Below, piece by piece: positions 2,133-40,589 of a DNA stretch of 64,000 nt. Both the position numbers and the translations under genes were made by a program. The stretch comes from an uncultured Actinomycetes bacterium. GTDB taxonomy: Bacteria; Actinomycetota; Actinomycetes; Streptosporangiales; Streptosporangiaceae. Location: the NCBI GenBank assembly GCA_963742795.1, contig CAVUNL010000010.1, positions 82,827 through 146,826 of the forward strand, in the 5' to 3' direction. The notes under the pieces are model-generated. The model searched no databases. It was not told the DNA's origin and worked only from the letters and a program-made list of their open reading frames with translations. The stretch's first letter is position 1; every line of letters begins with the position of its first letter.

Positions 2133-2481
2133 GGCCACGACCCGGGTGCTGCCCGGTGCCGCCGTCATTGAGCTTTCCGGTGAGGTCGACGGGTCCGCCG
2201 CCGACGTGCTGACCAACGCGTACCAGACCGCGGTCGGCACCCACGCGGACCTGGGCACGGTCGTGCTCGACTTCGCCGCGGTGGACTACATCAACTCCAC
2301 CGGCATCGCGCTGATCGTCAGCGTGCTGGCCCGCGCCCGGGCCGAACGCCGCAAGGTCGTCGCCAGCGGGCTGTCCCCGCACTATCGCGAGATCTTCGAC
2401 ATCACCAGGCTGTCGGACTTCATCGAGCTCTTTCCCGACCTCGACCACGCCGTCAGCCAGCTCACCGGACCAGCCGCGTAG
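2116..2481 (+). CDS. STAS-domain anti-sigma-factor antagonist
   Basis: GGAGG lies 8 nt upstream of the ATG at 2116, which overlaps the end of the previous gene. Motifs VDYINSTGIALIV and HYREIFDITRL are typical of SpoIIAA/RsbV-like STAS proteins. Confidence 0.85.
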   Translation: MASMCEATTRVLPGAAVIELSGEVDGSAADVLTNAYQTAVGTHADLGTVVLDFAAVDYINSTGIALIVSVLARARAERRKVVASGLSPHYREIFDITRLSDFIELFPDLDHAVSQLTGPAA

Positions 2482-2529
2482 AGCGGCACGCTAACGAACA
2501 TAAAAGGGTCATTAAGGGGAGGAAATCAG

Positions 2530-2886
2530 ATGAGTGCACCGACGATCACGATGGATGTGCGGCGGATCGGCGACGAGGTGGCGGTCGTCGACATCAAGGG
2601 TGAGGTCACCGCGGCGTGCGAGCCCGTGCTGATGTCAGCCTACGAGGCCGCCAGCGACGGCCGGACGAACCGGCTCGTGCTGAACTTTGCAGGCCTTGAG
2701 TACATGAACAGTGGCGGCATCGGCATGCTGGTCACCCTGCTCGTGCGGGCCAACCGGCAGCGTCAGCAGCTCTCCGCCTACGGGCTGAGCGCGCACTACC
2801 GGGAGATCTTCGAGCTCACCCGGCTGGACGAGGCCATCACGATCTACGACAACGAGGAATCGGCGCTCAACGGCGTCGTCAAGTAA
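2530..2886 (+). CDS. STAS-domain anti-sigma-factor antagonist (second paralog)
   Basis: Strong RBS (AAGGGGAGGA). LEYMNSGGIGMLV...HYREIFELTRL is paralogous to the preceding gene. Confidence 0.85.
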   Translation: MSAPTITMDVRRIGDEVAVVDIKGEVTAACEPVLMSAYEAASDGRTNRLVLNFAGLEYMNSGGIGMLVTLLVRANRQRQQLSAYGLSAHYREIFELTRLDEAITIYDNEESALNGVVK

Positions 2887-2905
2887 AAGGAGAGGGGGGC
2901 TGGCC

Positions 2906-3797
2906 ATGACCGAGACAGCAGGCCCGGACCGGGTGCGGTCGACGGAGCAGATCGGGCTGAGCGCCCGTGAGGCCGCTGCGACCCCGGTGCCGCAGGCGAC
3001 GGGCAACGCCCCGCCGCGGAACGCGGCTCAGGCAAGCAGGGCCGCGGAACGCGGCTCAGGCAGCAGGGCCGCGGAACGCGGCCAGCTGGGCCAGGAAGGT
3101 TGACCGGCTCGAGGTGGACCCGCGGGCCGGCGTCCGCGGGACCAACGTCGCGGGCCGGCGGCTCACCGGACCGGTTCAGGGCTTCGGCAAGATGTGGCAG
3201 AAGAGCTACCGCATGAAAGCAGGGCCGGAGATCGCGCCGGAACAGGCGATCGCCACCTGGAGAGAGCACTTTCCCGAGTTCTGGCCGAAGGGCAACCGGT
3301 TCGCCGGCGCCCTGACCGGCATCAATCCCGGCGACGTGGCCCTGCTCGACCTGGCCATCGGCGGCGGCGTGAAGCTGTCCACCGGGGTCTTCGTCCTCTA
3401 CGCCGACGCCGAGTCGTTCACCCTGATGACCCCGCAGGGGCACATGTTCGCGGGCTGGATCACCTTCTCCGCCGAACGCGAGGCCGACGAGACTGTGGTG
3501 CAGGCCCTGGTCCTGATGCGAGCCAACGACCCGCTCTACGAGATCGCGATGACGTTCGGCGGGCATCGCAAGGAGGACAAGTTCTGGGCCGCCACGCTGA
3601 CCGCGCTGGGGGAGCGGCTGGGCCTCCCGAACCCGGTCGTGGAGACCAAGACCACCTGCGTGGACACCAAACGCCAGTGGCGTCACGCCAACAACGTCTG
3701 GCACAACTCGATGATCCGCAGCGTGTTGCAGACCATGGCGGCTCCGGTGACCGGCCTGGCCCGTAGGCTCCGCCGAAACAAGCAGGCCACCACCTGA
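2906..3797 (+). CDS. Conserved hypothetical protein, apparently split by a +1 frame shift inside a 28/27-bp tandem repeat
   Basis: AAGGAGAG RBS precedes the ATG at 2906. That frame stops at 3103, while the protein-like sequence (GFGKMWQKSYRM...) continues in the next frame to 3797. Removing one A at 3034-3035 joins the two frames. Confidence 0.5.
3013..3083 (+). repeat. Tandem repeat with units of 28, 27 and a partial 16 bp
   Basis: GCCGCGGAACGCGGCTCAGGCAAGCAGG / GCCGCGGAACGCGGCTCAGGCAGCAGG / GCCGCGGAACGCGGCC. The units differ by one A. Confidence 0.8.
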
Positions 3798-3811
3798 AAC
3801 AGAGAGATGTC

Positions 3812-5308
3812 ATGCGGGGGAATCTTGACGCGGTGATAGTCGGCAGCGGCCCGAACGGTCTGGCCGCTGCCGTCACCCTGGCCGCGGCAGGCCTGAGGGT
3901 GCAGGTGATCGAGGGCGCGCCGGAGATCGGCGGCGGCTGCCGGACCGAGGAGCTCACCCTGCCCGGCTTCCGGCACGACGTCTGCTCGGCGGCGCATCCC
4001 CTGGCCCTGGCCTCGTCCTTCTTCCAGCGCTTCGACCTGGCCGCGCGGGGCGTGCGGTTCGCGCAACCGGAGGTCGAGTTCGCCAACCCCCTGGACGGCG
4101 GCCGGGCGGCGATCGTGACCCGCTCGGTGGCCGAGACCGCCGCCCGCCTCGGCGCCGACGGCCGCTCCTACCGCCGCCTGATCGGCCCGATGGCCCGCCA
4201 CGTCGACGACATCTGCGCGGAACTGCTCAAGCCGCTGCGCCGCCCGCCCGCGCATCCGCTGGTCATGGCCGGGTACGGCAGCCGCGGCATCCTGCCCGCC
4301 GCCGCGCTGGTCCGGCGCTGGCGCGGGCCAGAGGCGCGGGCGATCATGGGCGGGGCCGCGGCTCACTCCATGCTGCCGCTCAACGCCGTCCCGACCGGGG
4401 GCATCGGCCTGATGCTGATCGTGCTCGCGCACGGCGTGGGCTGGCCGCTGATCGAGGGCGGCAGCGCCCGGATCACCGACGCGATGGCGGACGCGGTGGT
4501 CACCGCCGGCGGCAGCATCGAGACCGGCCGCTGGGTCCGCTCGCTGGCCGAGCTACCCAGGGCGACCGCCGTCCTGCTCGACGTCTCGCCCAAGAACCTG
4601 GCCGAACTGGCCGGCGACCAGCTACCCGGCCGGTACCGCGCCGCCCTGCGCCGCTACCGCTACAACCCCGGCGTCTGCAAGGTCGACTTCGCCCTGTCCG
4701 GCCCGGTGCCGTGGGCCAACGAGGACTGCCGCCGGGCCGGCACCTTGCACCTGGGCGGGACCTTCGAGGAGATGGCCATAGCCGAGGCCGAGGTCGTCGC
4801 GGGCAAGCACCCGCAGAACCCGTACGTGCTGGTCGTCCAGCCGGGGGTCGCCGACCCGTCCCGGGCCCCGGCCGGGCAGCAGACGCTGTGGGCCTACACC
4901 CACGTGCCGGCCGGGTCCGACGTAGACGCGACCGACCGGATCGAGGCGCAGATCGAGCGGTTCGCGCCCGGCTTCCGCGACCTGGTCCTGGCCCGCGCCG
5001 TGCGCACCGCGGCCGACGAGGAGGCCCACAACCCGAACTACGTGGGCGGTGATATCGCGGTCGGCATGCAGACCATGAAGCAGACCGTATTCCGGCCGAC
5101 CATCCAGTGGAACCCGTACCGTACCCCGATCCGCGGCGTCTACCTGTGCTCCTCGGCCACCCCTCCCGTCCCCGGCGTGCACGGCCGCTGCGGCGAACTC
5201 GCCGCGCTCACCGCGCTGCGCGACATGTTTGCCATCCGCGACGCCCCCGACATCAGCCCGGCCCGCCTCCGCCCCGCCCCGAACGTCCCGACCAGCCCAG
5301 CACCGTAG
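3812..5308 (+). CDS. FAD/NAD(P)-binding oxidoreductase of the phytoene-desaturase (CrtI-like) family
   Basis: N-terminal Rossmann motif DAVIVGSGPNGLAAAVTLAAAGLRVQVIEG in a 498-aa ORF. Confidence 0.8.
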   Translation: MRGNLDAVIVGSGPNGLAAAVTLAAAGLRVQVIEGAPEIGGGCRTEELTLPGFRHDVCSAAHPLALASSFFQRFDLAARGVRFAQPEVEFANPLDGGRAAIVTRSVAETAARLGADGRSYRRLIGPMARHVDDICAELLKPLRRPPAHPLVMAGYGSRGILPAAALVRRWRGPEARAIMGGAAAHSMLPLNAVPTGGIGLMLIVLAHGVGWPLIEGGSARITDAMADAVVTAGGSIETGRWVRSLAELPRATAVLLDVSPKNLAELAGDQLPGRYRAALRRYRYNPGVCKVDFALSGPVPWANEDCRRAGTLHLGGTFEEMAIAEAEVVAGKHPQNPYVLVVQPGVADPSRAPAGQQTLWAYTHVPAGSDVDATDRIEAQIERFAPGFRDLVLARAVRTAADEEAHNPNYVGGDIAVGMQTMKQTVFRPTIQWNPYRTPIRGVYLCSSATPPVPGVHGRCGELAALTALRDMFAIRDAPDISPARLRPAPNVPTSPAP

Positions 5309-33898: not shown

Positions 33899-36631
33899 TT
33901 GGGGGGCGAACGCGTCGTCCCTCATGACGACCCGGAGGTACCGATGGCTGCCCAGGTTCCCGGCCAAGCGTCCACCCGCGGTCGGTGGTCGGCCGTGTCC
34001 GGCGGCGACCCCATCCTGACCTCCAAGATCACTGCACCGAACGTTCCGGACTGGGCGGTACCGCGCCAGCGGATCACCAGGCTGATCGCCGAGGGCACGC
34101 GGTGGTGCCCGCTCACGGTCGTCACCGGTCCTCCAGGGGCGGGCAAGACGATGGCCCTGGGCCTGTGGGCGGCGGCTGAGCCCGGCGCGGTGGCCTGGGT
34201 CGGGCTGGATGAGTTCGACAACCGGCCAGGTGTGTTCTGGTCGTACGTGGTAGCGGCGTTGCGTCAGTCCGGCGTCGCCATCCCGAAGGCGGTGCGGGCC
34301 ACGTCGCAGGAGCGGCAGGGCGAGGACGGGTTCCTGCTGCGGTTGACCGCGGCGCTGGCCGCGCAGGACCCTCCGGTCACGCTGGTCCTCGACGACCTGC
34401 ACCTGCTGACCGATCCCGGGACACTGAAGGGGCTTGAGTTCGTGATGCGGAACGTGGGGCCGGGCCTACGGCTGCTGGTCGCCTCGCGGATGGATCCGCT
34501 GCTGCCGCTGCACCGGTACCGGCTGGCCGGTCAGCTGACCGAGATCCGGGCCAGTGATCTGGCCTTCAGCCTCGACGAGGCCGGCCTGCTACTGGACCAG
34601 CACGGCGCCCTGCTGACGGCGGACGCGCTGGAGAGCCTGAACCGCCGGACCGAAGGCTGGGCGGCCGGCCTGCGCCTGGCCGCGATATCCCTGGGCACTC
34701 ATCCGGATCCGGATCTGTTCGTCAAGGAGCTGATCGCCGAGGACAGCGCCATGACCTGCTATCTGGTTGACGAGGTGCTCAACGTCCAGCCACCGGAGGT
34801 CCGTGAAGTCCTGCTGAGCACCAGCATCCTGGAGCACGTCTGCGGGGCAGCCGCCATCGAGCTGACCGGCGATGAGCAAGCCGCCAGCATTCTGGCCGCC
34901 TTGGTCCGCACGAACGCGCTGGTCCAGCCGATCGGCTCCGGGTGGTACCGCTATCACACGCTGTTCGCCGAGATGCTCCGACTGAGGCTCCGGTACGACC
35001 ATCCGGACCGGGTGGCCGCCTTGCATCAACGGGCGGCCAGGTGGTACGCCCGGAACGGCATGCTCGCCGACGCGGTCCGGCACGCCGCTGCGGCTGGTGA
35101 CTGGCCGCTGGCCGCGGCCATGGTCGTCGACGACCTGGCGCTCAGCCAGATCATCGAGCCGCAGGACGGCCAGCGCCTGGCCGGTGAATTCGCCGGTATG
35201 CCGTCCGGCGAGGCCTGGACTACGCCGCAGCCCCACCTGGTTACGGCTGCGATGGCGCTCCGCGCCGGACAGCATGACGCGGGTGCCGCCGCGCTGAATG
35301 CCGCTGACGCCCTGTTGGAGCGTCTTCCCGCCGACGGGGAGATCAAGGCCCGCCTGACCGCCGCGGTGCTTCGCCTGACCGTCAGCCTGGGCACCGGGGA
35401 CCTAGCGGCGGCGGCGTCGGCCGCCAGCCGCGCGCAGTTCATGCTCGACGAGGTTCCGGGCCGGAAGCTGGCCCGGCATCCGGACATCAGGCGGCGGGTG
35501 CTGTCCGGCCATGCCGCCGTCGAGCTGTGGTCGGGCCGTCTGGACGGGGCGGCCGACGTCCTCGAGGCTGCCGTGACCGCCGAGGCCGCTTCCGGCCGGG
35601 AGCACGAACGGATCAGCCTGACTGGGCGCCTGGCACTGGCGGAGGCGTTGCGCGGACGGCTCCGCCGCGCTGCGGAACTGGCCGGCCAGGCGTCCGCCAT
35701 GGCCAGTGAGCACCGCCCGTCAGGCCCCGGCCCTGCGGCGCTGGTCGCGCTGGCCTGGGTGCACCTGGCCCGCAATGAACTGCGCGAGGCACGCACCCGC
35801 GTCAAGCAGGCAGACGCCGCCCTCGGCGTCAGCCCGGACAAGCTGATCGCGGCGGCGGCCTACCTGGTCGCCGCGAGCGGTGCCCTGGCCGAGGGACGCC
35901 CCGCGGTGGCCACGCAGATCATCGCCCGGGCCAGGTCCGGGTGGTCCGTTCCGGCCTGGCTGGACGAGCAGCTGAGCCTGGCCGAGTCGCGAGCATGCGC
36001 GGCGGCCGGCGACATCCAGGCCGCTCTGACCGCGGCCGAACGGGCCGGCACCTCGCTGGAGGCGGCGATCACGATCGCCCGTGCTTGGGCGGTCGCCGGA
36101 GACGGCGAGGCCGCCCAACGCGCCCTGGCTCCCGCTCTCGCGGCCGATGGCCAGGCACCGGACCCGGTACGCCTGCAAGCGTGGCTGGTGGACGCCCGGC
36201 TCGGCTACGACAGCGGCGACGATGGGCGCGGCCGCCGGTCGCTGGCATGCGCCCTGCGGCTGGCCGAACGCGAGCAGTTCAGGCTGCCGTTCGTGCTGGA
36301 GCGTGGCTGGCTTGGCGCGGTGCTCCGGCGTGACCCCGAGCTAGCCGACTGCCACCGGCTCCTGCTCGCCCCGGCTCTGGGCCAGGACCAGCTTCCGGCG
36401 CCCGTGGACACTGCCGGCCAGCCGCCGGTCCTGATCACGGAGCCGCTCACCGAACGCGAACGGGAGGTGCTCGTGCACGTCTCGGCCATGCTGAACACGG
36501 CCGAAGTCGCCGAGGAGATGTACATCTCCGTCAACACCGTCAAGACCCACCTCAGGAACATCTACCGCAAGCTGGCGGCGGCGCACCGCAGCGAGGCGGT
36601 GCGCCGGGCCCGCCAGCTTCAGCTGATCTGA
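33899..36631 (+). CDS. LAL-type (MalT-like) large ATP-binding LuxR-family regulator
   Basis: Walker A GPPGAGKT, a long TPR-like middle region, and a C-terminal LuxR HTH (LTEREREVLVHVSAMLNTAEVAEEMYISVNTVKTHLRNIYRKL). Confidence 0.85.
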   Translation: MGGERVVPHDDPEVPMAAQVPGQASTRGRWSAVSGGDPILTSKITAPNVPDWAVPRQRITRLIAEGTRWCPLTVVTGPPGAGKTMALGLWAAAEPGAVAWVGLDEFDNRPGVFWSYVVAALRQSGVAIPKAVRATSQERQGEDGFLLRLTAALAAQDPPVTLVLDDLHLLTDPGTLKGLEFVMRNVGPGLRLLVASRMDPLLPLHRYRLAGQLTEIRASDLAFSLDEAGLLLDQHGALLTADALESLNRRTEGWAAGLRLAAISLGTHPDPDLFVKELIAEDSAMTCYLVDEVLNVQPPEVREVLLSTSILEHVCGAAAIELTGDEQAASILAALVRTNALVQPIGSGWYRYHTLFAEMLRLRLRYDHPDRVAALHQRAARWYARNGMLADAVRHAAAAGDWPLAAAMVVDDLALSQIIEPQDGQRLAGEFAGMPSGEAWTTPQPHLVTAAMALRAGQHDAGAAALNAADALLERLPADGEIKARLTAAVLRLTVSLGTGDLAAAASAASRAQFMLDEVPGRKLARHPDIRRRVLSGHAAVELWSGRLDGAADVLEAAVTAEAASGREHERISLTGRLALAEALRGRLRRAAELAGQASAMASEHRPSGPGPAALVALAWVHLARNELREARTRVKQADAALGVSPDKLIAAAAYLVAASGALAEGRPAVATQIIARARSGWSVPAWLDEQLSLAESRACAAAGDIQAALTAAERAGTSLEAAITIARAWAVAGDGEAAQRALAPALAADGQAPDPVRLQAWLVDARLGYDSGDDGRGRRSLACALRLAEREQFRLPFVLERGWLGAVLRRDPELADCHRLLLAPALGQDQLPAPVDTAGQPPVLITEPLTEREREVLVHVSAMLNTAEVAEEMYISVNTVKTHLRNIYRKLAAAHRSEAVRRARQLQLI

Positions 36632-36847: not shown

Positions 36848-37087
36848 GTGCCATCGTCGTACTATGAAATCCGGGTAGCGGGCGTCCTCCCGGCCGAGGT
36901 CTTGCTCGATTTCGGCCGGCTCACCGCCTCGGTCGAGCCGGTCGAGACCGTCGTTCACGGCCCCATTCAGGATCAAGCCGCCCTGCAGGGACTGCTCGCC
37001 CGGCTCGAGACCTTCGGCGTGCAGGTCGTAGAGGTCCGGCGGCTGCACGACAGGGATCCCTCGGCCGACGACCGGGACCGCCGGTGA
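36848..37087 (+). CDS. Small YEIRV-motif protein, paralog 1
   Basis: YYEIRVAGVL...TVVHGPIQDQAALQGLLARLETFGVQVVEVRR. Shares its pattern with the next two ORFs. Confidence 0.55.
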   Translation: MPSSYYEIRVAGVLPAEVLLDFGRLTASVEPVETVVHGPIQDQAALQGLLARLETFGVQVVEVRRLHDRDPSADDRDRR

Positions 37088-37236
37088 CCGGCCCGGCCCG
37101 GCCCGCGACAAGGGTGCGGGCCGGCCCCTCCGCGGGCCCGCGGCACGGGCGTCCGCCGCTCATCATCCGCACCGGATGATGTCCCCTCCTGCCTGCCGAA
37201 GGATAGTGGAGGAGAGAGCTGGCCAAGGAGGGCGTG

Positions 37237-37470
37237 ATGGCGACCCGATCCGGGAAGGAGGCCCTCGTGACCGCCTACGAGATCAGGGTGATCGGCTCCT
37301 TTGGCCCGGCGGCGCGTGAGGCGTTCGCCGACATGATGGTGGAGGTGGAGCCGACCATCACGGTCTTGTCCGGTGACCTTGACCAGTGCGGCCTGCACGC
37401 CCTGCTGGATCGCGTGCGCGCGCTGGGTCTTGAACTCGTCGGCGTTAGGCAGGCTCCGTCGTCGGCATGA
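37237..37470 (+). CDS. Small YEIRV-motif protein, paralog 2
   Basis: AAGGAGG RBS. AYEIRVIGSFGPAAREAFADM...TVLSGDLDQCGLHALLDRVRALGLELVGVRQ. Confidence 0.55.
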   Translation: MATRSGKEALVTAYEIRVIGSFGPAAREAFADMMVEVEPTITVLSGDLDQCGLHALLDRVRALGLELVGVRQAPSSA

Positions 37471-37496: not shown

Positions 37497-37709
37497 TTAG
37501 CTCGTACCGTCGTTCAGCCGGCTCAACTCCACGAGTTCCATCCCGAGCGCCAGGATGCGGTTGAGCGCGCCGTACAGGGCCGCTTGGTCCAAAGTGCCGG
37601 TGAGCACGGTATTGGCGCCGTTAGCTTGGATACCGAAATCCGCGAAGGCCTCGCGCCCGATATCGCCCAGGCCACCAGCAATGGTTATCCGGTAGCGGTG
37701 CGTACGCAC
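37497..37709 (-). CDS. Small YEIRV-motif protein, paralog 3 (convergent)
   Basis: RYRITIAGGLGDIGREAFADF...TVLTGTLDQAALYGALNRILALGMELVELSR. Confidence 0.55.
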   Translation of the reverse strand: MRTHRYRITIAGGLGDIGREAFADFGIQANGANTVLTGTLDQAALYGALNRILALGMELVELSRLNDGTS

Positions 37710-37972
37710 GTCCCCTCCACAGACATAAGTGGCCGGGTATGCGCAACGCGGAGTGACCCGTGCACCGGAACTATATAGGTGCGTGATAATACGGTTGCAC
37801 GTTAGTGGTCACATATGCCTAAGCGTTATCTACCGTGGCCTTACGGAACGACGGCCACTACTGGCCGTGTCCCGTACGACGCAGCGGAAGCCCAAGTGGG
37901 AGGTGGAGGTATCGATGGGCTGGGCCATCCGGGCGGCGGGGCGGTAGCGGCGGCAGTAGTTCGGCGCCTCCA

Positions 37973-38065
37973 GAGCCGGCCGTCGGTGGTACGGCCGTGC
38001 CCCTGGCGTCCGCCCTCCACCACCGCCTCCGCCGTGTAGAGGACCTTCTGAAGCTGAACGGCCAT
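37973..38065 (-). pseudogene. 5' remnant of an Ohr/OsmC-family peroxiredoxin
   Basis: MAVQLQKVLYTAEAVVEGGRQGHGRTTDGRL matches the Ohr N-terminus. No frame contains the catalytic Cys regions downstream. Confidence 0.5.
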
Positions 38066-38127: not shown

Positions 38128-38321
38128 AAATATGTCAATTCAGAACAGACCGTGCCGCGTGATGGGCGACAAGCACATGGTCAGCATCAGTGCTGCTGCC
38201 CCACCGCCGGCAGGAGCAAATGACTGGAAGGCCGCTCGGTCAGCGGGTTACACTCCCGGCATGGTCCAGACGGCCCGCCTGCTCCTCATGACGCCGCACT
38301 GACACGATCGGTCAGTGCGGC

Positions 38322-38350
38322 AGCCCCTCACGCGTGAGGGGCTTTTTCGT
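38322..38350 (+). terminator. Intrinsic-terminator-like hairpin plus T-tract immediately upstream of leuS
   Basis: AGCCCCTCACG/CGTGAGGGGCT is a perfect palindrome followed by TTTTTCGTTT. It is preceded by a second perfect 11-bp hairpin (38293..38321). Confidence 0.7.
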
Positions 38351-38381
38351 TTCCGGCCAACGATGGGACGAGGAGAGCCCG

Positions 38382-40589
38382 ATGGACGAGGGGACGCCGC
38401 GCTTCAGGTACGACGCGCGGCTGGCGAACGAGATCGAGCTGCGCTGGCAGGACCGGTGGGAGCACGAGGGCACCTTCCGCTCCCCGAACCGGGTGGCGGG
38501 GCGGCCCAAGGTCTACCTGGTCGACTTCTTCCCCTATCCCAGCGGCATGGGCCTGCACGTCGGTCACCCGCTGGGCTACATCGGCACCGATGTGTTCGGG
38601 CGGTACCTGCGCATGACCGGGCATGACGTGCTGCACCCCTTCGGCTTCGACACCTTCGGTCTGCCCGCCGAGCAGTACGCGATCGACACCGGCCAGCACC
38701 CGGCCGTGACCGTGCGGCAGAACGCGGCCGCCATGCGGCGCCAGCTGCGGCGCCTAGGCCTGGGACACGACCGCCGCCGTGAGATCATGACCAGCGACCC
38801 GTCCTTCTACCGCTGGACGCAGTGGATCTTCCTGCAGATCTTCAACAGTTGGTACGACCGGACCGCCGGGCCGCCGGGCTCGAGGGGGCGGGCCCGGCCG
38901 GTCAGCGAGCTGGTCGCCGAGTTCGCCTCCGGGCAGCGTCCGGTCCCGGGCGGCCGGGCCTGGGCCGGCCTGTCCGCCACCGAGCAGCGGGACATCGTCG
39001 ACGATCACCGGCTGGCCTACCAGGCCGAACAGATCGTCAACTGGTGCCCGGGACTGGGCACCGTCCTGGCTGACGAGGAGGTGACGGACGAGGGCCGCAG
39101 CGCGGTGGGCAACTACCCCGTCTACCGCAGGCCGCTGCGGCAGTGGCTGCTGCGCATCACCGCCTTCGCCGAGCGGCTGCTGGCCGACCTGGACGGCGTG
39201 GACTGGCCGGAGAACGTCAAGCGCCTGCAACGCAACTGGATCGGCCCGAGCGGGGGACCGTACCGGCTAAGGGACTGGCTGTTCTCCCGGCAGCGGTACT
39301 GGGGCGAGCCGTTCCCCATCGTCTACGACGAGGCCGACCCGGCCCGGCCGATCGCGCTGCCCGAGGAGATGTTGCCGGTCACGCTGCCCGACGTGGCCGA
39401 CTTCCGGCTGCTGCCCCAGGACGACGCGAGCGACCCGGTGCCCGCCCTGGCCCGGGCCATCGAGTGGTCGCAGGTCACACTGGATCTGGGCGACGGCCCC
39501 AAACGCTACCGTCGCGAGCTGAACGTCATGCCCCAGTGGGCGGGCTCGTCCTGGTACTACCTGCGCTACCTGGATCCGTTCAACACCAGCGCCCTGATCG
39601 GCCCGGACATCGAGCGCTACTGGATGCGGCCGGGCGGCGTCGACCTGTACGTCGGCGGCGTCGAGCACGCGGTGCTGCACCTGCTGTACGCCAGGTTCTG
39701 GCACAAGGTGCTGTACGACATCGGCGTGGCGAGCACCGCCGAACCGTTCGGCCGGCTGTTCAACCAGGGCTACATCCTGGCCGACGCGTTCACCGACGCC
39801 CGCGGCCAGTACGTGCCCGCGGCCGAGGTGACCCGCGAGCCGGACGGCTGGGCCTACCGCGGGCAGCCGGTCACCCGGCGGGCCGGGAAGATGGGCAAGA
39901 GCCTGAAGAACGGCGTCAGCCCCGACGAGATCTACACTTCCTACGGCGCGGACACGCTGCGCCTGTACGAGATGGCCATGGGCCCGCTGGACGCCGACCG
40001 CCCATGGCACACCGACGACATAGTCGGCATGCACCGCTTCCTGCAACGCCTGTGGCGCCTGATCGTGGACGAGTCGACGGGGGAGACGCTGCCGTCACCA
40101 GACGCTCAGGAGCCCCTGGACGCGGCCACCACCCGGCTGCTGCACCAGACGATCATCGCCGTCCAGGACGACTTCGCCGCGTTGCGGTTCAACACCGCGA
40201 TCGCGCGGATCATCGAACTGACCGCGCACGCCTCCCGGCTGGATCACCTACCGCGCGCGCTGGCCGAGCCGCTAGTTCTGATGGTGGCGCCGCTGGCCCC
40301 GCACGCCGCCGAGGAGCTGTGGCAGCGGCTGGGGCATCCCGCGTCGCTGGCCTTCGAGCCGTTTCCTCAAGGCGATCCCGCCCTAGCCGCCGAGGCCACC
40401 GTGACGTTGCCCGTCCAGGTCAACGGCAAGCGCCGGTTCACCATCGAGGTCCCTGCCTCCGCCGGCGAGGCCCAGATCGCCGAACTGCTGGCCGAGCATC
40501 CTGGCTACCCACAGCACGACGTTGCCCGCGTGGTCATCGTCCCCGGCAAGATCGTCAACGTCGTCCTGCGCTTAGCGTGCCGGGTTTAG
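38382..40589 (+). CDS. leuS: Leucyl-tRNA synthetase lacking the CP1 editing domain
   Basis: GAGGAGAG RBS. HIGH (HVGHPLGY), KMSKS (KMGKS), [17 protein letters not shown] and the C-terminal tRNA-binding tail are present. The editing insertion is replaced by [15 protein letters not shown]. The protein is about 735 aa. Confidence 0.85.

What the first reader, a model, noticed from the sequence alone, without database searches (positions are those of the whole stretch)
38382..40589. Leucyl-tRNA synthetase with the CP1 editing domain cleanly excised
All class Ia LeuRS landmarks are present: HVGHPLGY (HIGH), KMGKS (KMSKS), [17 protein letters not shown] and the C-terminal tRNA-binding tail. Bacterial LeuRS normally carries a ~190-aa CP1 editing domain between QRNWIGRS.G and YRLRDW. 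This gene instead reads [27 protein letters not shown], a five-residue Gly/Pro bridge, and the ORF stays in frame. At about 735 aa it is much shorter than the >900 aa I expect for actinobacterial LeuRS.

The excision follows the exact domain boundary, so this looks like an evolved editing-less enzyme rather than random decay. From established knowledge, Mycoplasma mobile LeuRS naturally lacks CP1 and mistranslates. The CP1 pocket is the target of benzoxaborole inhibitors. Extra aaRS copies in actinomycetes are often self-resistance or stress paralogs.

The genomic context is atypical for housekeeping leuS. It is flanked by an Ohr remnant and a GH5 gene, with a structured leader upstream.
Basis: partly seen in the sequence, partly recalled or inferred. 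Interest (0 to 1): 0.72.

Follow-up and report, generated by a model that had tools for sequence, protein, structure and literature searches.

The report
Soil actinomycete LeuRS lacking editing domain
This gene encodes an intact, conserved leucyl-tRNA synthetase that has cleanly lost its proofreading (CP1) domain in a whole clade of uncultured, free-living soil actinomycetes, and it looks like their ordinary leuS, not an extra copy, which is unexpected because such loss was thought typical of tiny parasite genomes.

Summary
ORF 38382-40589 (+) is a 735-aa bacterial LeuRS (TIGR00396, 654 bits) with HIGH, KMGKS, anticodon-binding and C-terminal domains but no CP1 editing domain. [15 protein letters not shown] replaces about 160-250 residues that full-length relatives carry (PF13603 E=1e-38 to 1e-51).

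It is neither an artefact nor a dead gene. More than 120 database clusters from independent assemblies share the junction. dN/dS is 0.22-0.30, and the core evolves no faster than full-length orthologs.

The clade nests (bootstrap 100) among full-length LeuRS of Streptosporangiaceae-type soil MAGs. A second CP1-less lineage (P0121) and a Gaiellales-type lineage lost CP1 independently.

The "structured leader" is the known actinobacterial leuS leader-peptide attenuator ([13 protein letters not shown], hairpin, terminator), which also precedes full-length leuS in relatives. The "atypical context" is uninformative, because leuS neighbourhoods are not conserved in this group. No biosynthetic cluster adjoins the gene.

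I therefore favour the resident housekeeping leuS having lost CP1 by in-frame deletion over a resistance or stress paralog. I could not scan whole genomes, so a second full-length leuS is not excluded.

The parts
38382..40589 (+). leuS coding sequence: 735-aa bacterial-type leucyl-tRNA synthetase without the CP1 editing domain (end includes the stop codon)
   Evidence: TIGR00396 653.8 bits. Pfam PF00133/PF09334/PF08264 but no PF13603. GC3 = 0.93, typical of native genes. dN/dS 0.22-0.30 against orthologs.
39246..39260 (+). Five-codon bridge P289-S-G-G-P293 that replaces CP1, between NWIG and YRLRDW
   Evidence: Sequence. Alignment to relatives that have 161-226 aa (measured in five) or up to about 254 aa (alignment counts) at this point. 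The same junction type occurs in every member of the clade.
38556..38567 (+). HIGH signature (H59-V-G-H62)
   Evidence: Invariant in 35 homologs. Aligned to the HIGH motif of solved LeuRS structures.
39888..39902 (+). KMSKS signature (K503-M-G-K-S507)
   Evidence: Invariant in 35 homologs. Aligned to KMSKS of 3ziu and 1h3n.
39783..39881 (+). Roughly 33-residue segment (about residues 468-500) at the position of the leucine-specific domain, retained here but absent from M. mobile LeuRS
   Evidence: The 3ziu alignment breaks between query 467 and 501. M. mobile has GKDG in place of the LSD (PMC3643597).
38249..38254 (+). TACACT, a -10-like box 6 nt upstream of the leader ATG (candidate leaderless transcript start)
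   Evidence: Conserved as TTACACT or TTACCCT in related loci. S. lividans leuL2 is transcribed leaderless (PMC8079986). The promoter is inferred and is not detected by the sigma-70 consensus scan.
38261..38302 (+). leuL-type leader peptide [16 protein letters not shown] with three consecutive Leu codons (CTG CTC CTC, 38279-38287)
   Evidence: Equivalent peptides lie upstream of CP1-less and full-length leuS in relatives. It matches S. lividans LeuL2 MRAVRLLLSEPR*.
38293..38321 (+). Hairpin 1: an 11-bp stem GCCGCACTGAC/GTCAGTGCGGC whose 5' arm contains the last leader codons and the stop codon
   Evidence: Folding. A compensatory A-T to G-C change occurs in L007/L008/L009/L083.
38322..38347 (+). 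Intrinsic terminator: 9-bp GC-rich hairpin AGCCCCTCA-CGCG-TGAGGGGCT plus a T-run
   Evidence: Terminator scan. Conserved in all related loci that have a leader.
38371..38377 (+). Shine-Dalgarno AGGAGAG for leuS
   Evidence: Sequence. Conserved in L001 and L002.
37973..38065 (-). Remnant (first 31 codons) of an OsmC/Ohr-family gene that is intact upstream of leuS in close relatives
   Evidence: tblastn 100% identity over residues 1-31 of the L085 OsmC protein. The window-L085 DNA alignment is interrupted at 37699-37972.

Best explanation
This is a functional leucyl-tRNA synthetase that charges tRNA-Leu but has no post-transfer editing site. It most likely descends from the lineage's resident, housekeeping leuS by a single in-frame deletion that removed CP1 exactly at its two linker strands and left a PSGGP turn. 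It is still controlled by the ancestral leuL leader-peptide and terminator attenuator, which senses Leu-tRNA charging. The predicted consequences are inferences from established knowledge. Fidelity would rest on the synthetic site only. The enzyme should mischarge norvaline, and possibly Met or Ile, more than CP1-bearing enzymes. It should also be intrinsically insensitive to benzoxaboroles, which trap tRNA in the editing site. What is shown here: the domain architecture, the conservation, the phylogenetic position, the selection regime and the leader. What is inferred: enzymatic activity, the fidelity phenotype and the single-copy status.
For: Architecture. The deletion is not an artefact: more than 120 protein clusters at 90% identity, 80-97% identical to the query and 724-838 aa, none with PF13603, come from JGI, ENA and NCBI assemblies including contigs longer than 1 Mb. 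All share the junction NWIGP-x-GG-P-Y. The gene is under constraint: dN/dS is 0.22-0.30 against 0.24-0.38 for full-length orthologs, and mean identity to 53 outgroup LeuRS is 62.8% against 63.9% for full-length relatives. Catalytic motifs and pocket residues are conserved. Evidence for the resident ortholog: the clade is monophyletic (bootstrap 100) and nested within a bootstrap-100 clade of full-length Streptosporangiaceae-type LeuRS, at 70-75% identity, the same as those show to each other. The same Leu-run leader, hairpin and terminator precede both CP1-less and full-length leuS, and this is the element described for the Streptomyces leuS. In the independent CP1-less lineage P0121, the locus shares two neighbours with full-length sister loci. 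No assembly in the genome scan carries both forms. No full-length protein at 80% identity or more appears among the top 120 hits. Feasibility: editing-dead LeuRS mutants of M. abscessus are viable, and Leu and Ile are not toxic to them.
Against: Whole genomes could not be searched. The one genome-collection scan was truncated at 600 rows and relied on generic peptide patterns, so 'no genome has both' is weak evidence. All carriers are MAGs, so no isolate genome was available. There is no flank synteny between the window clade and any full-length locus, although such synteny is absent in this group generally. No activity, expression or fidelity data exist. The structure prediction failed (pLDDT 40.6).
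Confidence: 0.62

Rival explanations
1. It is an auxiliary CP1-less paralog. The genome would also hold a canonical full-length leuS. The short copy would be induced through its Leu-sensing leader when Leu-tRNA charging falls, for example under leucine starvation or inhibition of the main enzyme. It would provide stress tolerance or resistance to editing-site inhibitors.
For: The window clade shares no flanks with full-length loci. A duplicated gene could have carried its leader with it.
Against: There are no biosynthetic or resistance-type neighbours. There is no rate acceleration or relaxed selection. The clade nests among the family's ordinary LeuRS with no sign of foreign origin. No genome has both forms among 7 CP1-less and more than 15 related full-length assemblies. 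Each of two independent lineages would need a duplication plus a deletion, where a deletion alone suffices. No natural product is known to me that targets the LeuRS editing site (own knowledge).
Confidence: 0.3
2. It is an assembly artefact or a decaying pseudogene. On this reading the CP1 region was collapsed during assembly, or the gene is dead.
For: None beyond the unusual length.
Against: The identical junction type occurs in more than 120 independent clusters and in short- and long-read assemblies from several projects. The reading frame is intact with GC3 = 0.93. Purifying selection is evident. The catalytic motifs are invariant. There is no CP1 remnant in any frame.
Confidence: 0.02
3. 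It is a LeuRS-like enzyme recruited to a non-translational role, such as tRNA-dependent natural-product or cell-wall chemistry or regulation, and not to bulk tRNA-Leu charging.
For: aaRS paralogs with lost domains are sometimes recruited to such roles (established knowledge).
Against: It keeps the anticodon-binding and C-terminal tRNA-binding domains to the last profile position. It has the housekeeping leader, shows no accelerated evolution and has no biosynthetic neighbours.
Confidence: 0.04

Closest known systems
Mycoplasma mobile LeuRS (PDB 3ziu), the characterised naturally CP1-less bacterial LeuRS
   Same: It is a bacterial-type LeuRS in which CP1 is replaced by a short peptide between NWIG and (Y/K)L(R/Q)DW. 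It is the best PDB sequence match, aligned continuously over the junction. The expected loss of post-transfer editing is the same.
   Different: The origin is independent: the window protein nests within actinobacterial LeuRS. The bridge is 5 residues (PSGGP) against the nonapeptide KEEIDGKIT. The window protein keeps a segment of about 33 residues at the leucine-specific-domain position, where M. mobile has GKDG, and it keeps the actinobacterial insertion at about 155-210. The hosts are high-GC, apparently free-living soil and peat actinomycetes with contigs longer than 1 Mb, not a genome-reduced parasite.
Canonical actinobacterial LeuRS (e.g. M. tuberculosis / M. abscessus LeuRS, Streptomyces LeuS)
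   Same: The catalytic core, actinobacterial insertion, anticodon-binding domain and C-terminal domain are the same. Identity to full-length Streptosporangiaceae-type enzymes over shared columns is 70-75%. The upstream leuL-type leader matches the one in Streptomyces.
   Different: It lacks the whole editing domain (TTRPDT and PAHDxRD motifs), which all full-length relatives examined retain.
leuL2 leader-peptide attenuator upstream of Streptomyces leuS (Seliverstov 2005; Droste 2021)
   Same: Both have a short, apparently leaderless ORF with a run of three Leu codons ending in P-R/H-stop, followed by a hairpin and U-run upstream of leuS.
   Different: It is found here in front of a CP1-less enzyme. 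Some clade members have lost the leader (L006) or the Leu run (L009). No antiterminator structure could be identified by constrained folding.
Engineered delta-CP1 LeuRS and editing-dead LeuRS mutants (e.g. M. abscessus D436H)
   Same: Both lack a functional editing site. Such mutants are viable, benzoxaborole-resistant and norvaline-sensitive.
   Different: Those are laboratory or drug-selected variants. This one is a naturally fixed, diversified clade under purifying selection.

Membership tests
Bacterial-type leucyl-tRNA synthetase (TIGR00396 leuS_bact) | Whole-protein score above the curated equivalog cutoff | tested here: met
   653.8 bits against a cutoff of 548.4.
Bacterial-type leucyl-tRNA synthetase (TIGR00396 leuS_bact) | Class I signatures HIGH and KMSKS | tested here: met
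   HVGH 59-62 and KMGKS 503-507 are invariant in 35 homologs and aligned to solved LeuRS structures.
Bacterial-type leucyl-tRNA synthetase (TIGR00396 leuS_bact) | Anticodon-binding domain and C-terminal tRNA-binding domain | tested here: met
   PF08264 E=5.5e-14. The profile match runs to position 842 of 843.
Bacterial-type leucyl-tRNA synthetase (TIGR00396 leuS_bact) | CP1 editing domain (PF13603; TTRPDT and HDxRD motifs) | tested here: not met
   There is no PF13603 hit, while relatives score E=1e-38 to 1e-51. The motifs are absent. No CP1-like sequence occurs in any frame.
Bacterial-type leucyl-tRNA synthetase (TIGR00396 leuS_bact) | Leucylation of tRNA-Leu | not testable with these tools
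   Inferred from conserved motifs and purifying selection only.
Naturally CP1-less LeuRS of the M. mobile type | CP1 replaced by a short peptide linker at the domain boundary | tested here: met
   [15 protein letters not shown] against M. mobile NWIG-KEEIDGKIT-YKLQDW.
Naturally CP1-less LeuRS of the M. mobile type | Leucine-specific domain also missing (GKDG tetrapeptide) | tested here: not met
   Query residues 468-500 have no counterpart in 3ziu.
Naturally CP1-less LeuRS of the M. mobile type | Common descent with the Mollicutes enzyme | tested here: not met
   It nests with bootstrap 100 inside actinobacterial LeuRS, so the loss is independent.
Naturally CP1-less LeuRS of the M. mobile type | It is the only LeuRS of the organism | tested here: inconclusive
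Naturally CP1-less LeuRS of the M. mobile type | Mischarging and mistranslation at Leu codons | not testable with these tools
   Requires biochemistry or proteomics.
Actinobacterial leuS leader-peptide attenuator (leuL2 type) | Short upstream ORF with a run of Leu codons, directly upstream of leuS | tested here: met
   [13 protein letters not shown] at 38261-38302. Homologous peptides occur in many related loci. Compare MRAVRLLLSEPR* in S. lividans.
Actinobacterial leuS leader-peptide attenuator (leuL2 type) | Rho-independent terminator between the leader ORF and leuS | tested here: met
   9-bp GC-rich hairpin plus T-run at 38322-38347, conserved across loci.
Actinobacterial leuS leader-peptide attenuator (leuL2 type) | Alternative antiterminator structure dependent on ribosome position | tested here: inconclusive
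   Constrained folds keep the terminator in all three ribosome states in six loci. Seliverstov 2005 reports antiterminator hairpins for Streptomyces, but the figure is not available.
Actinobacterial leuS leader-peptide attenuator (leuL2 type) | Leaderless transcription of the leader ORF | not testable with these tools
   A TACACT box 6 nt upstream of the ATG is consistent with it. A TSS map is required.
Self-resistance or auxiliary aaRS paralog | Coexists with a canonical housekeeping copy in the same genome | tested here: inconclusive
   Not seen, but the scan is incomplete.
Self-resistance or auxiliary aaRS paralog | Linked to a biosynthetic gene cluster or resistance genes | tested here: not met
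   The neighbours are an AMP-binding enzyme, a sacsin-like protein, a GDSL lipase, a LuxR/AAA regulator, GH5, a hexapeptide transferase, CBS and DUF4037. Flanks vary between relatives.
Self-resistance or auxiliary aaRS paralog | Divergent or foreign phylogenetic origin, or accelerated evolution relative to the housekeeping enzyme | tested here: not met

The most novel reading that the evidence does not exclude
The CP1-less enzyme is the only LeuRS of a diverse, abundant clade of free-living, large-genome soil and peat actinomycetes. CP1 has also been shed independently at least three times in soil Actinomycetota: the window clade, the P0121 lineage and the Gaiellales-type P0207/P0133 lineage. 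Many further short LeuRS clusters exist in metagenomes. That would mean LeuRS post-transfer editing is dispensable in nature well beyond host-restricted, genome-reduced organisms. One possible reason, which is speculation, is that its main physiological target, norvaline, rarely accumulates in these aerobes.
Probability: 0.5. Interest if true: 0.78.

Novelty: new variant of a known kind. Interest (0 to 1): 0.62.

Why it matters
Loss of aaRS proofreading is currently described as a trait of small-genome, host-restricted microbes such as Mycoplasma, endosymbionts and microsporidia (review PMC7373986). This finding gives a conserved, selected, independently evolved CP1-less LeuRS in widespread soil actinomycetes, with recurrent loss in related lineages. 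That supplies a natural experiment on when editing is dispensable. It also offers a compact actinobacterial LeuRS scaffold for engineering and a predicted reservoir of intrinsic insensitivity to benzoxaborole (editing-site) antibiotics. The prediction is directly testable through norvaline, Ile and Met mischarging, proteome mistranslation and drug sensitivity.

Tried and rejected
1. AlphaFold2 on a 35-sequence alignment (A2) gave mean pLDDT 40.6 and pTM 0.28. The model is unusable, so no fold search was run. The alignment held only sequences at least 83% identical.

2. Rfam gathering scan of the whole window: no hits. The leader is not an Rfam family such as a T-box.

3. Sigma-70 consensus scan: no promoter found. 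The -10 box is inferred by eye and by conservation only.

4. Constrained folding to find an antiterminator: the terminator persisted in all states.

5. Flank synteny between CP1-less and full-length loci: none. This turned out to be uninformative, because full-length loci share no flanks with each other either.

6. Met49->Phe in the leucine pocket as a compensatory change: rejected as specific. Full-length L026 also has Phe, and CP1-less L007 and P0121 have Met.

7. Gradual decay of editing motifs in relatives: not seen. All keep TTRPDT, and the nearest keep PAHDxRD.

8. Search for a stand-alone or frameshifted CP1 in the window and 9 CP1-less loci: only noise, E > 0.08.

9. Exact-sequence look-up of the window protein: not on record, so the source genome is unidentified.

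10. Pfam on the putative Ohr fragment: no hit. The remnant was confirmed instead through synteny with L085.

11. Melnikov 2018b (PMC6298100) is not held.

Full report
**The observation.** The window holds an ORF from 38334 (GTG) to 40589 on the + strand. The biologically sensible start is ATG 38382. An AGGAGAG Shine-Dalgarno lies at 38371-38377, and the GTG at 38334 sits inside a terminator hairpin. The 735-aa product exceeds the curated cutoff of the bacterial LeuRS equivalog TIGR00396 (653.8 against 548.4 bits), but in three stretches, the last being query 294-729 = profile 409-842/843. Pfam reports the class I catalytic domain and the anticodon-binding domain but not PF13603, the LeuRS editing domain. 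As a positive control, the same scan finds PF13603 at E=1e-38 to 1e-51 in four full-length relatives and not in other short forms.

**The junction against solved structures.** Query residue 293 aligns to T. thermophilus LeuRS residue 230, and YRLRDW resumes at about 417. The top hit is the 637-aa LeuRS 3ziu (M. mobile type), aligned straight through the junction. The bridge is P289-S-G-G-P293, nt 39246-39260. GC3 is 0.93, like neighbouring native genes.

**Artefact or decay?** Neither. A search of 5.8 billion proteins returned, as its 120 best hits, only proteins of 724-838 aa, 80-97% identical, none annotated with PF13603. They come from JGI, ENA and NCBI assemblies and include contigs of 0.5, 1.17 and 1.78 Mb. 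In a species-representative genome scan, seven uncultured soil or peat MAGs carry the short gene, among them palsa_599, several Microflora-Danica-type MFD bins and "Streptosporangiaceae bacterium" isolates. All share the junction NWIGP-x-GG-P-Y-[RH]-x-x-DW, whereas the nearest full-length enzymes read NWIG[RAP]SDGA...RSYRLRDW with about 160-250 residues in between. That indicates one ancestral in-frame deletion. Pairwise dN/dS within the clade is 0.22-0.30, no higher than 0.24-0.38 for full-length orthologs at similar divergence. HIGH, KMGKS and the pocket residues aligned to T. thermophilus D80, H541 and H545 are conserved. No CP1-like sequence survives in any frame of the window or of nine related loci.

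**Where it sits in LeuRS evolution.** I used an NJ tree with CP1 columns removed (669 and 575 shared columns, 100 bootstraps). The CP1-less clade is monophyletic (bootstrap 100). It nests within a bootstrap-100 clade of full-length LeuRS from Streptosporangiaceae-type MAGs and Actinoallomurus. Its identity to them (mean 71%, maximum 75%) equals their identity to each other (mean 74%, minimum 69%). Its mean identity to 53 outgroup LeuRS (62.8%) is within a point of the full-length relatives (63.9%, range 62.7-65.3). There is thus no long branch, no foreign origin and no relaxed constraint. All full-length relatives keep intact editing motifs (TTRPDT, and PAHDxRD in the nearest ones), so the module was lost at a stroke and did not erode.

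**Recurrent loss.** P0121 (772 aa) lacks CP1 but has a different bridge, NWIGP-DDSNGPRERT-YRLRDW. It groups with bootstrap 100 with the full-length L026/L023/L020, not with the window clade. This is an independent deletion. Its locus shares two neighbours with its full-length sisters: a 309-aa protein in both L020 and L023, and an NTP_transf_9 protein in L023. Unrelated leuS loci in this group share nothing but leuS. That points to in-situ deletion in the resident gene. A third actinobacterial lineage, P0207 (labelled Gaiellales) plus P0133, is also CP1-less. Several other 600-750-aa clusters from unknown taxa run directly from NWI.. into ..[11 protein letters not shown].

**The "structured leader".** The 170 nt upstream are highly conserved between loci whose proteins are only 82-86% identical. 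They contain a TACACT box (38249-38254) and, 6 nt later, a 13-codon [16 protein letters not shown] (38261-38302) with three consecutive Leu codons. An 11-bp hairpin follows, whose 5' arm embeds the last codons and the stop (38293-38321). A GC-rich terminator hairpin with a T-run comes next (38322-38347). Equivalent peptides (...LLL..P[R/H]*) precede other CP1-less genes and also full-length leuS in many relatives, including Micropruina, and the independent P0121 gene.

This is the known actinobacterial leuS attenuator. Seliverstov et al. 2005 predicted classical attenuators upstream of leuS in S. coelicolor and S. avermitilis (PMC1262725). Droste et al. 2021 mapped a leaderless LeuL2 peptide, MRAVRLLLSEPR*, with a hairpin and U-stretch, upstream of S. 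lividans leuS (PMC8079986). Hairpin 1 shows a compensatory A-T to G-C change coupled to His/Arg at the penultimate codon, which explains the conserved P-[R/H]-stop ending. I could not find an antiterminator, because constrained folds keep the terminator whatever the ribosome position. The switching mechanism therefore remains open. L006 lacks the leader, and L009 keeps the hairpins but has only one Leu codon.

**Context.** The neighbours are an AMP-binding enzyme, a sacsin-like ATPase, a GDSL lipase, a 910-aa LuxR/AAA regulator, then leuS, a GH5 cellulase, a hexapeptide transferase, CBS and DUF4037. This is not a biosynthetic cluster. Close relatives are syntenic. They show that the window has lost all but the first 31 codons of an OsmC/Ohr gene upstream of leuS. 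Because leuS flanks are unconserved even among full-length orthologs, an "atypical" context carries no weight.

**Interpretation.** The gene is best read as the lineage's own leuS that lost CP1. It has the housekeeping regulatory element, the phylogenetic position of an ortholog, an ortholog-like rate and selection regime, no linked resistance or biosynthetic genes, and an independent sister case with locus conservation. An editing-less sole LeuRS is physiologically plausible in Actinomycetota. The M. abscessus D436H editing-dead mutant is viable and epetraborole-resistant. Leucine and isoleucine are not toxic to it, and only norvaline is (about 6% misincorporation; PMC8535176).

The main caveat is copy number. 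I could not scan whole genomes. The absence of any assembly carrying both forms is therefore only weak support. I put about 0.6 on "resident and probably sole LeuRS", about 0.3 on "auxiliary paralog beside a canonical copy", and a few percent on everything else.

**Comparison with the known.** Functionally it should work like M. mobile LeuRS, in which the nonapeptide KEEIDGKIT replaces CP1 (PMC3643597). It is not a member of that lineage. The origin is independent and the bridge differs. The segment at the leucine-specific-domain position and the actinobacterial insertion are retained, and the hosts are high-GC soil actinomycetes. Reviews currently tie editing loss to small-genome, host-restricted organisms (PMC7373986). 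In five full-text literature searches I found no paper describing a CP1-less LeuRS in Actinomycetota. I rate it a new variant of a known kind, with interest 0.62. That would rise to about 0.78 if single-copy status is confirmed.

Noticed in passing
window 38249-38347: A leucine leader-peptide attenuator (TACACT box, [13 protein letters not shown], an 11-bp hairpin that embeds the stop codon, then a terminator). It is the same element as Streptomyces leuL2 and is shared by CP1-less and full-length leuS of relatives.
   Followed up: yes
window 38261-38347; L001, L003, L005, L007, L008 equivalents: Constrained folding finds no antiterminator. The terminator hairpin forms whether the ribosome is absent, stalled on the Leu codons or at the stop codon. 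The Leu-codon stretch GCUCCUCAU could pair with the terminator 3' arm, and CUCCUCG with the leuS SD, but the switching logic is unexplained.
   Followed up: partly
L006 ~1760-1990; L009 ~4790-5000: Two CP1-less relatives deviate. L006 has no leader at all, and leuS follows the GDSL lipase gene directly. L009 keeps both hairpins, but its leader peptide MFSAGSPRLAGPR* has a single Leu codon.
   Followed up: partly
L083 7694-10012 (protein P0121; GCA_009772795.1 WNGH01006182.1): An independent second CP1 deletion with the bridge PDDSNGPRERT. It is sister (bootstrap 100) to full-length L020/L023/L026, has its own leuL-type leader (M)AAGSRLLTRPR*, and has two neighbours with homologs near the sisters' leuS (one in both L020 and L023, one in L023 only).
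   Followed up: yes
proteins P0207 (Gaiellales MAG label), P0133, P0132, P0145, P0141, P0164, P0172, P0176, P0189, P0233, P0262: Many other 600-750-aa LeuRS clusters in metagenomes also lack CP1, with bridges of 0-15 residues. P0133 has the same PRGGPY bridge as L005 despite only about 52-54% identity to the window protein. The taxa are mostly unknown.
   Followed up: partly
window 36848-37087 (+), 37234-37470 (+), 37497-37709 (-): Three paralogous small ORFs of 70-79 aa (motif ..YEIRV/YRITI..G.L..LL.R...LG.ELV.V) with no Pfam hit. Two have homologs at 86-88% identity upstream of leuS in L001, and three small genes of similar size occupy the same position in L085.
   Followed up: partly
window 37699-38065: The OsmC/Ohr gene is truncated to its first 31 codons (37973-38065, minus strand). 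The adjoining 274 nt do not match the relative L085. They contain a weak FGE-sulfatase C-terminal-like fragment (E=0.007), and L001 has an intact FGE-sulfatase gene upstream of its leuS.
   Followed up: partly
window 33899-36631: A 910-aa LuxR-family regulator with an AAA ATPase domain lies between the GDSL lipase gene and leuS. The closely related loci L002/L004 have no such gene there, so it is probably a local insertion or rearrangement.
   Followed up: no
L010, L017, L022 versus L013 (CP1 regions): CP1 length varies among the full-length relatives: 161-175 aa in L010 and L017 (L022 groups with L017 at 914 aa total), 226 aa in L013, and up to about 254 aa in L014. The short ones match only positions 1-139 of the 185-position PF13603 profile yet keep the editing motifs.
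   Followed up: partly
L015 793-4066: The full-length leuS of MAG RYN_229 is split into two overlapping ORFs (793-2436 and 2165-4066), which indicates a frameshift from a sequencing error or a pseudogene.
   Followed up: no
L005 (776-aa LeuRS), alignment columns ~1022-1054: A Pro-rich insertion of about 40 residues (..PQPPDPPHAEA..PPPDPADPPSAVPPDPP..) lies in the anticodon-binding region of one CP1-less ortholog.
   Followed up: no
window 38526-38528 (residue F49): The Met of the MFPYPSG leucine-pocket motif (T. thermophilus M40) is Phe in all 35 close homologs and in the Gaiellales CP1-less form. It is also Phe in full-length L026, and it is Met in CP1-less L007 and P0121, so it is not a clean correlate of CP1 loss.
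   Followed up: yes
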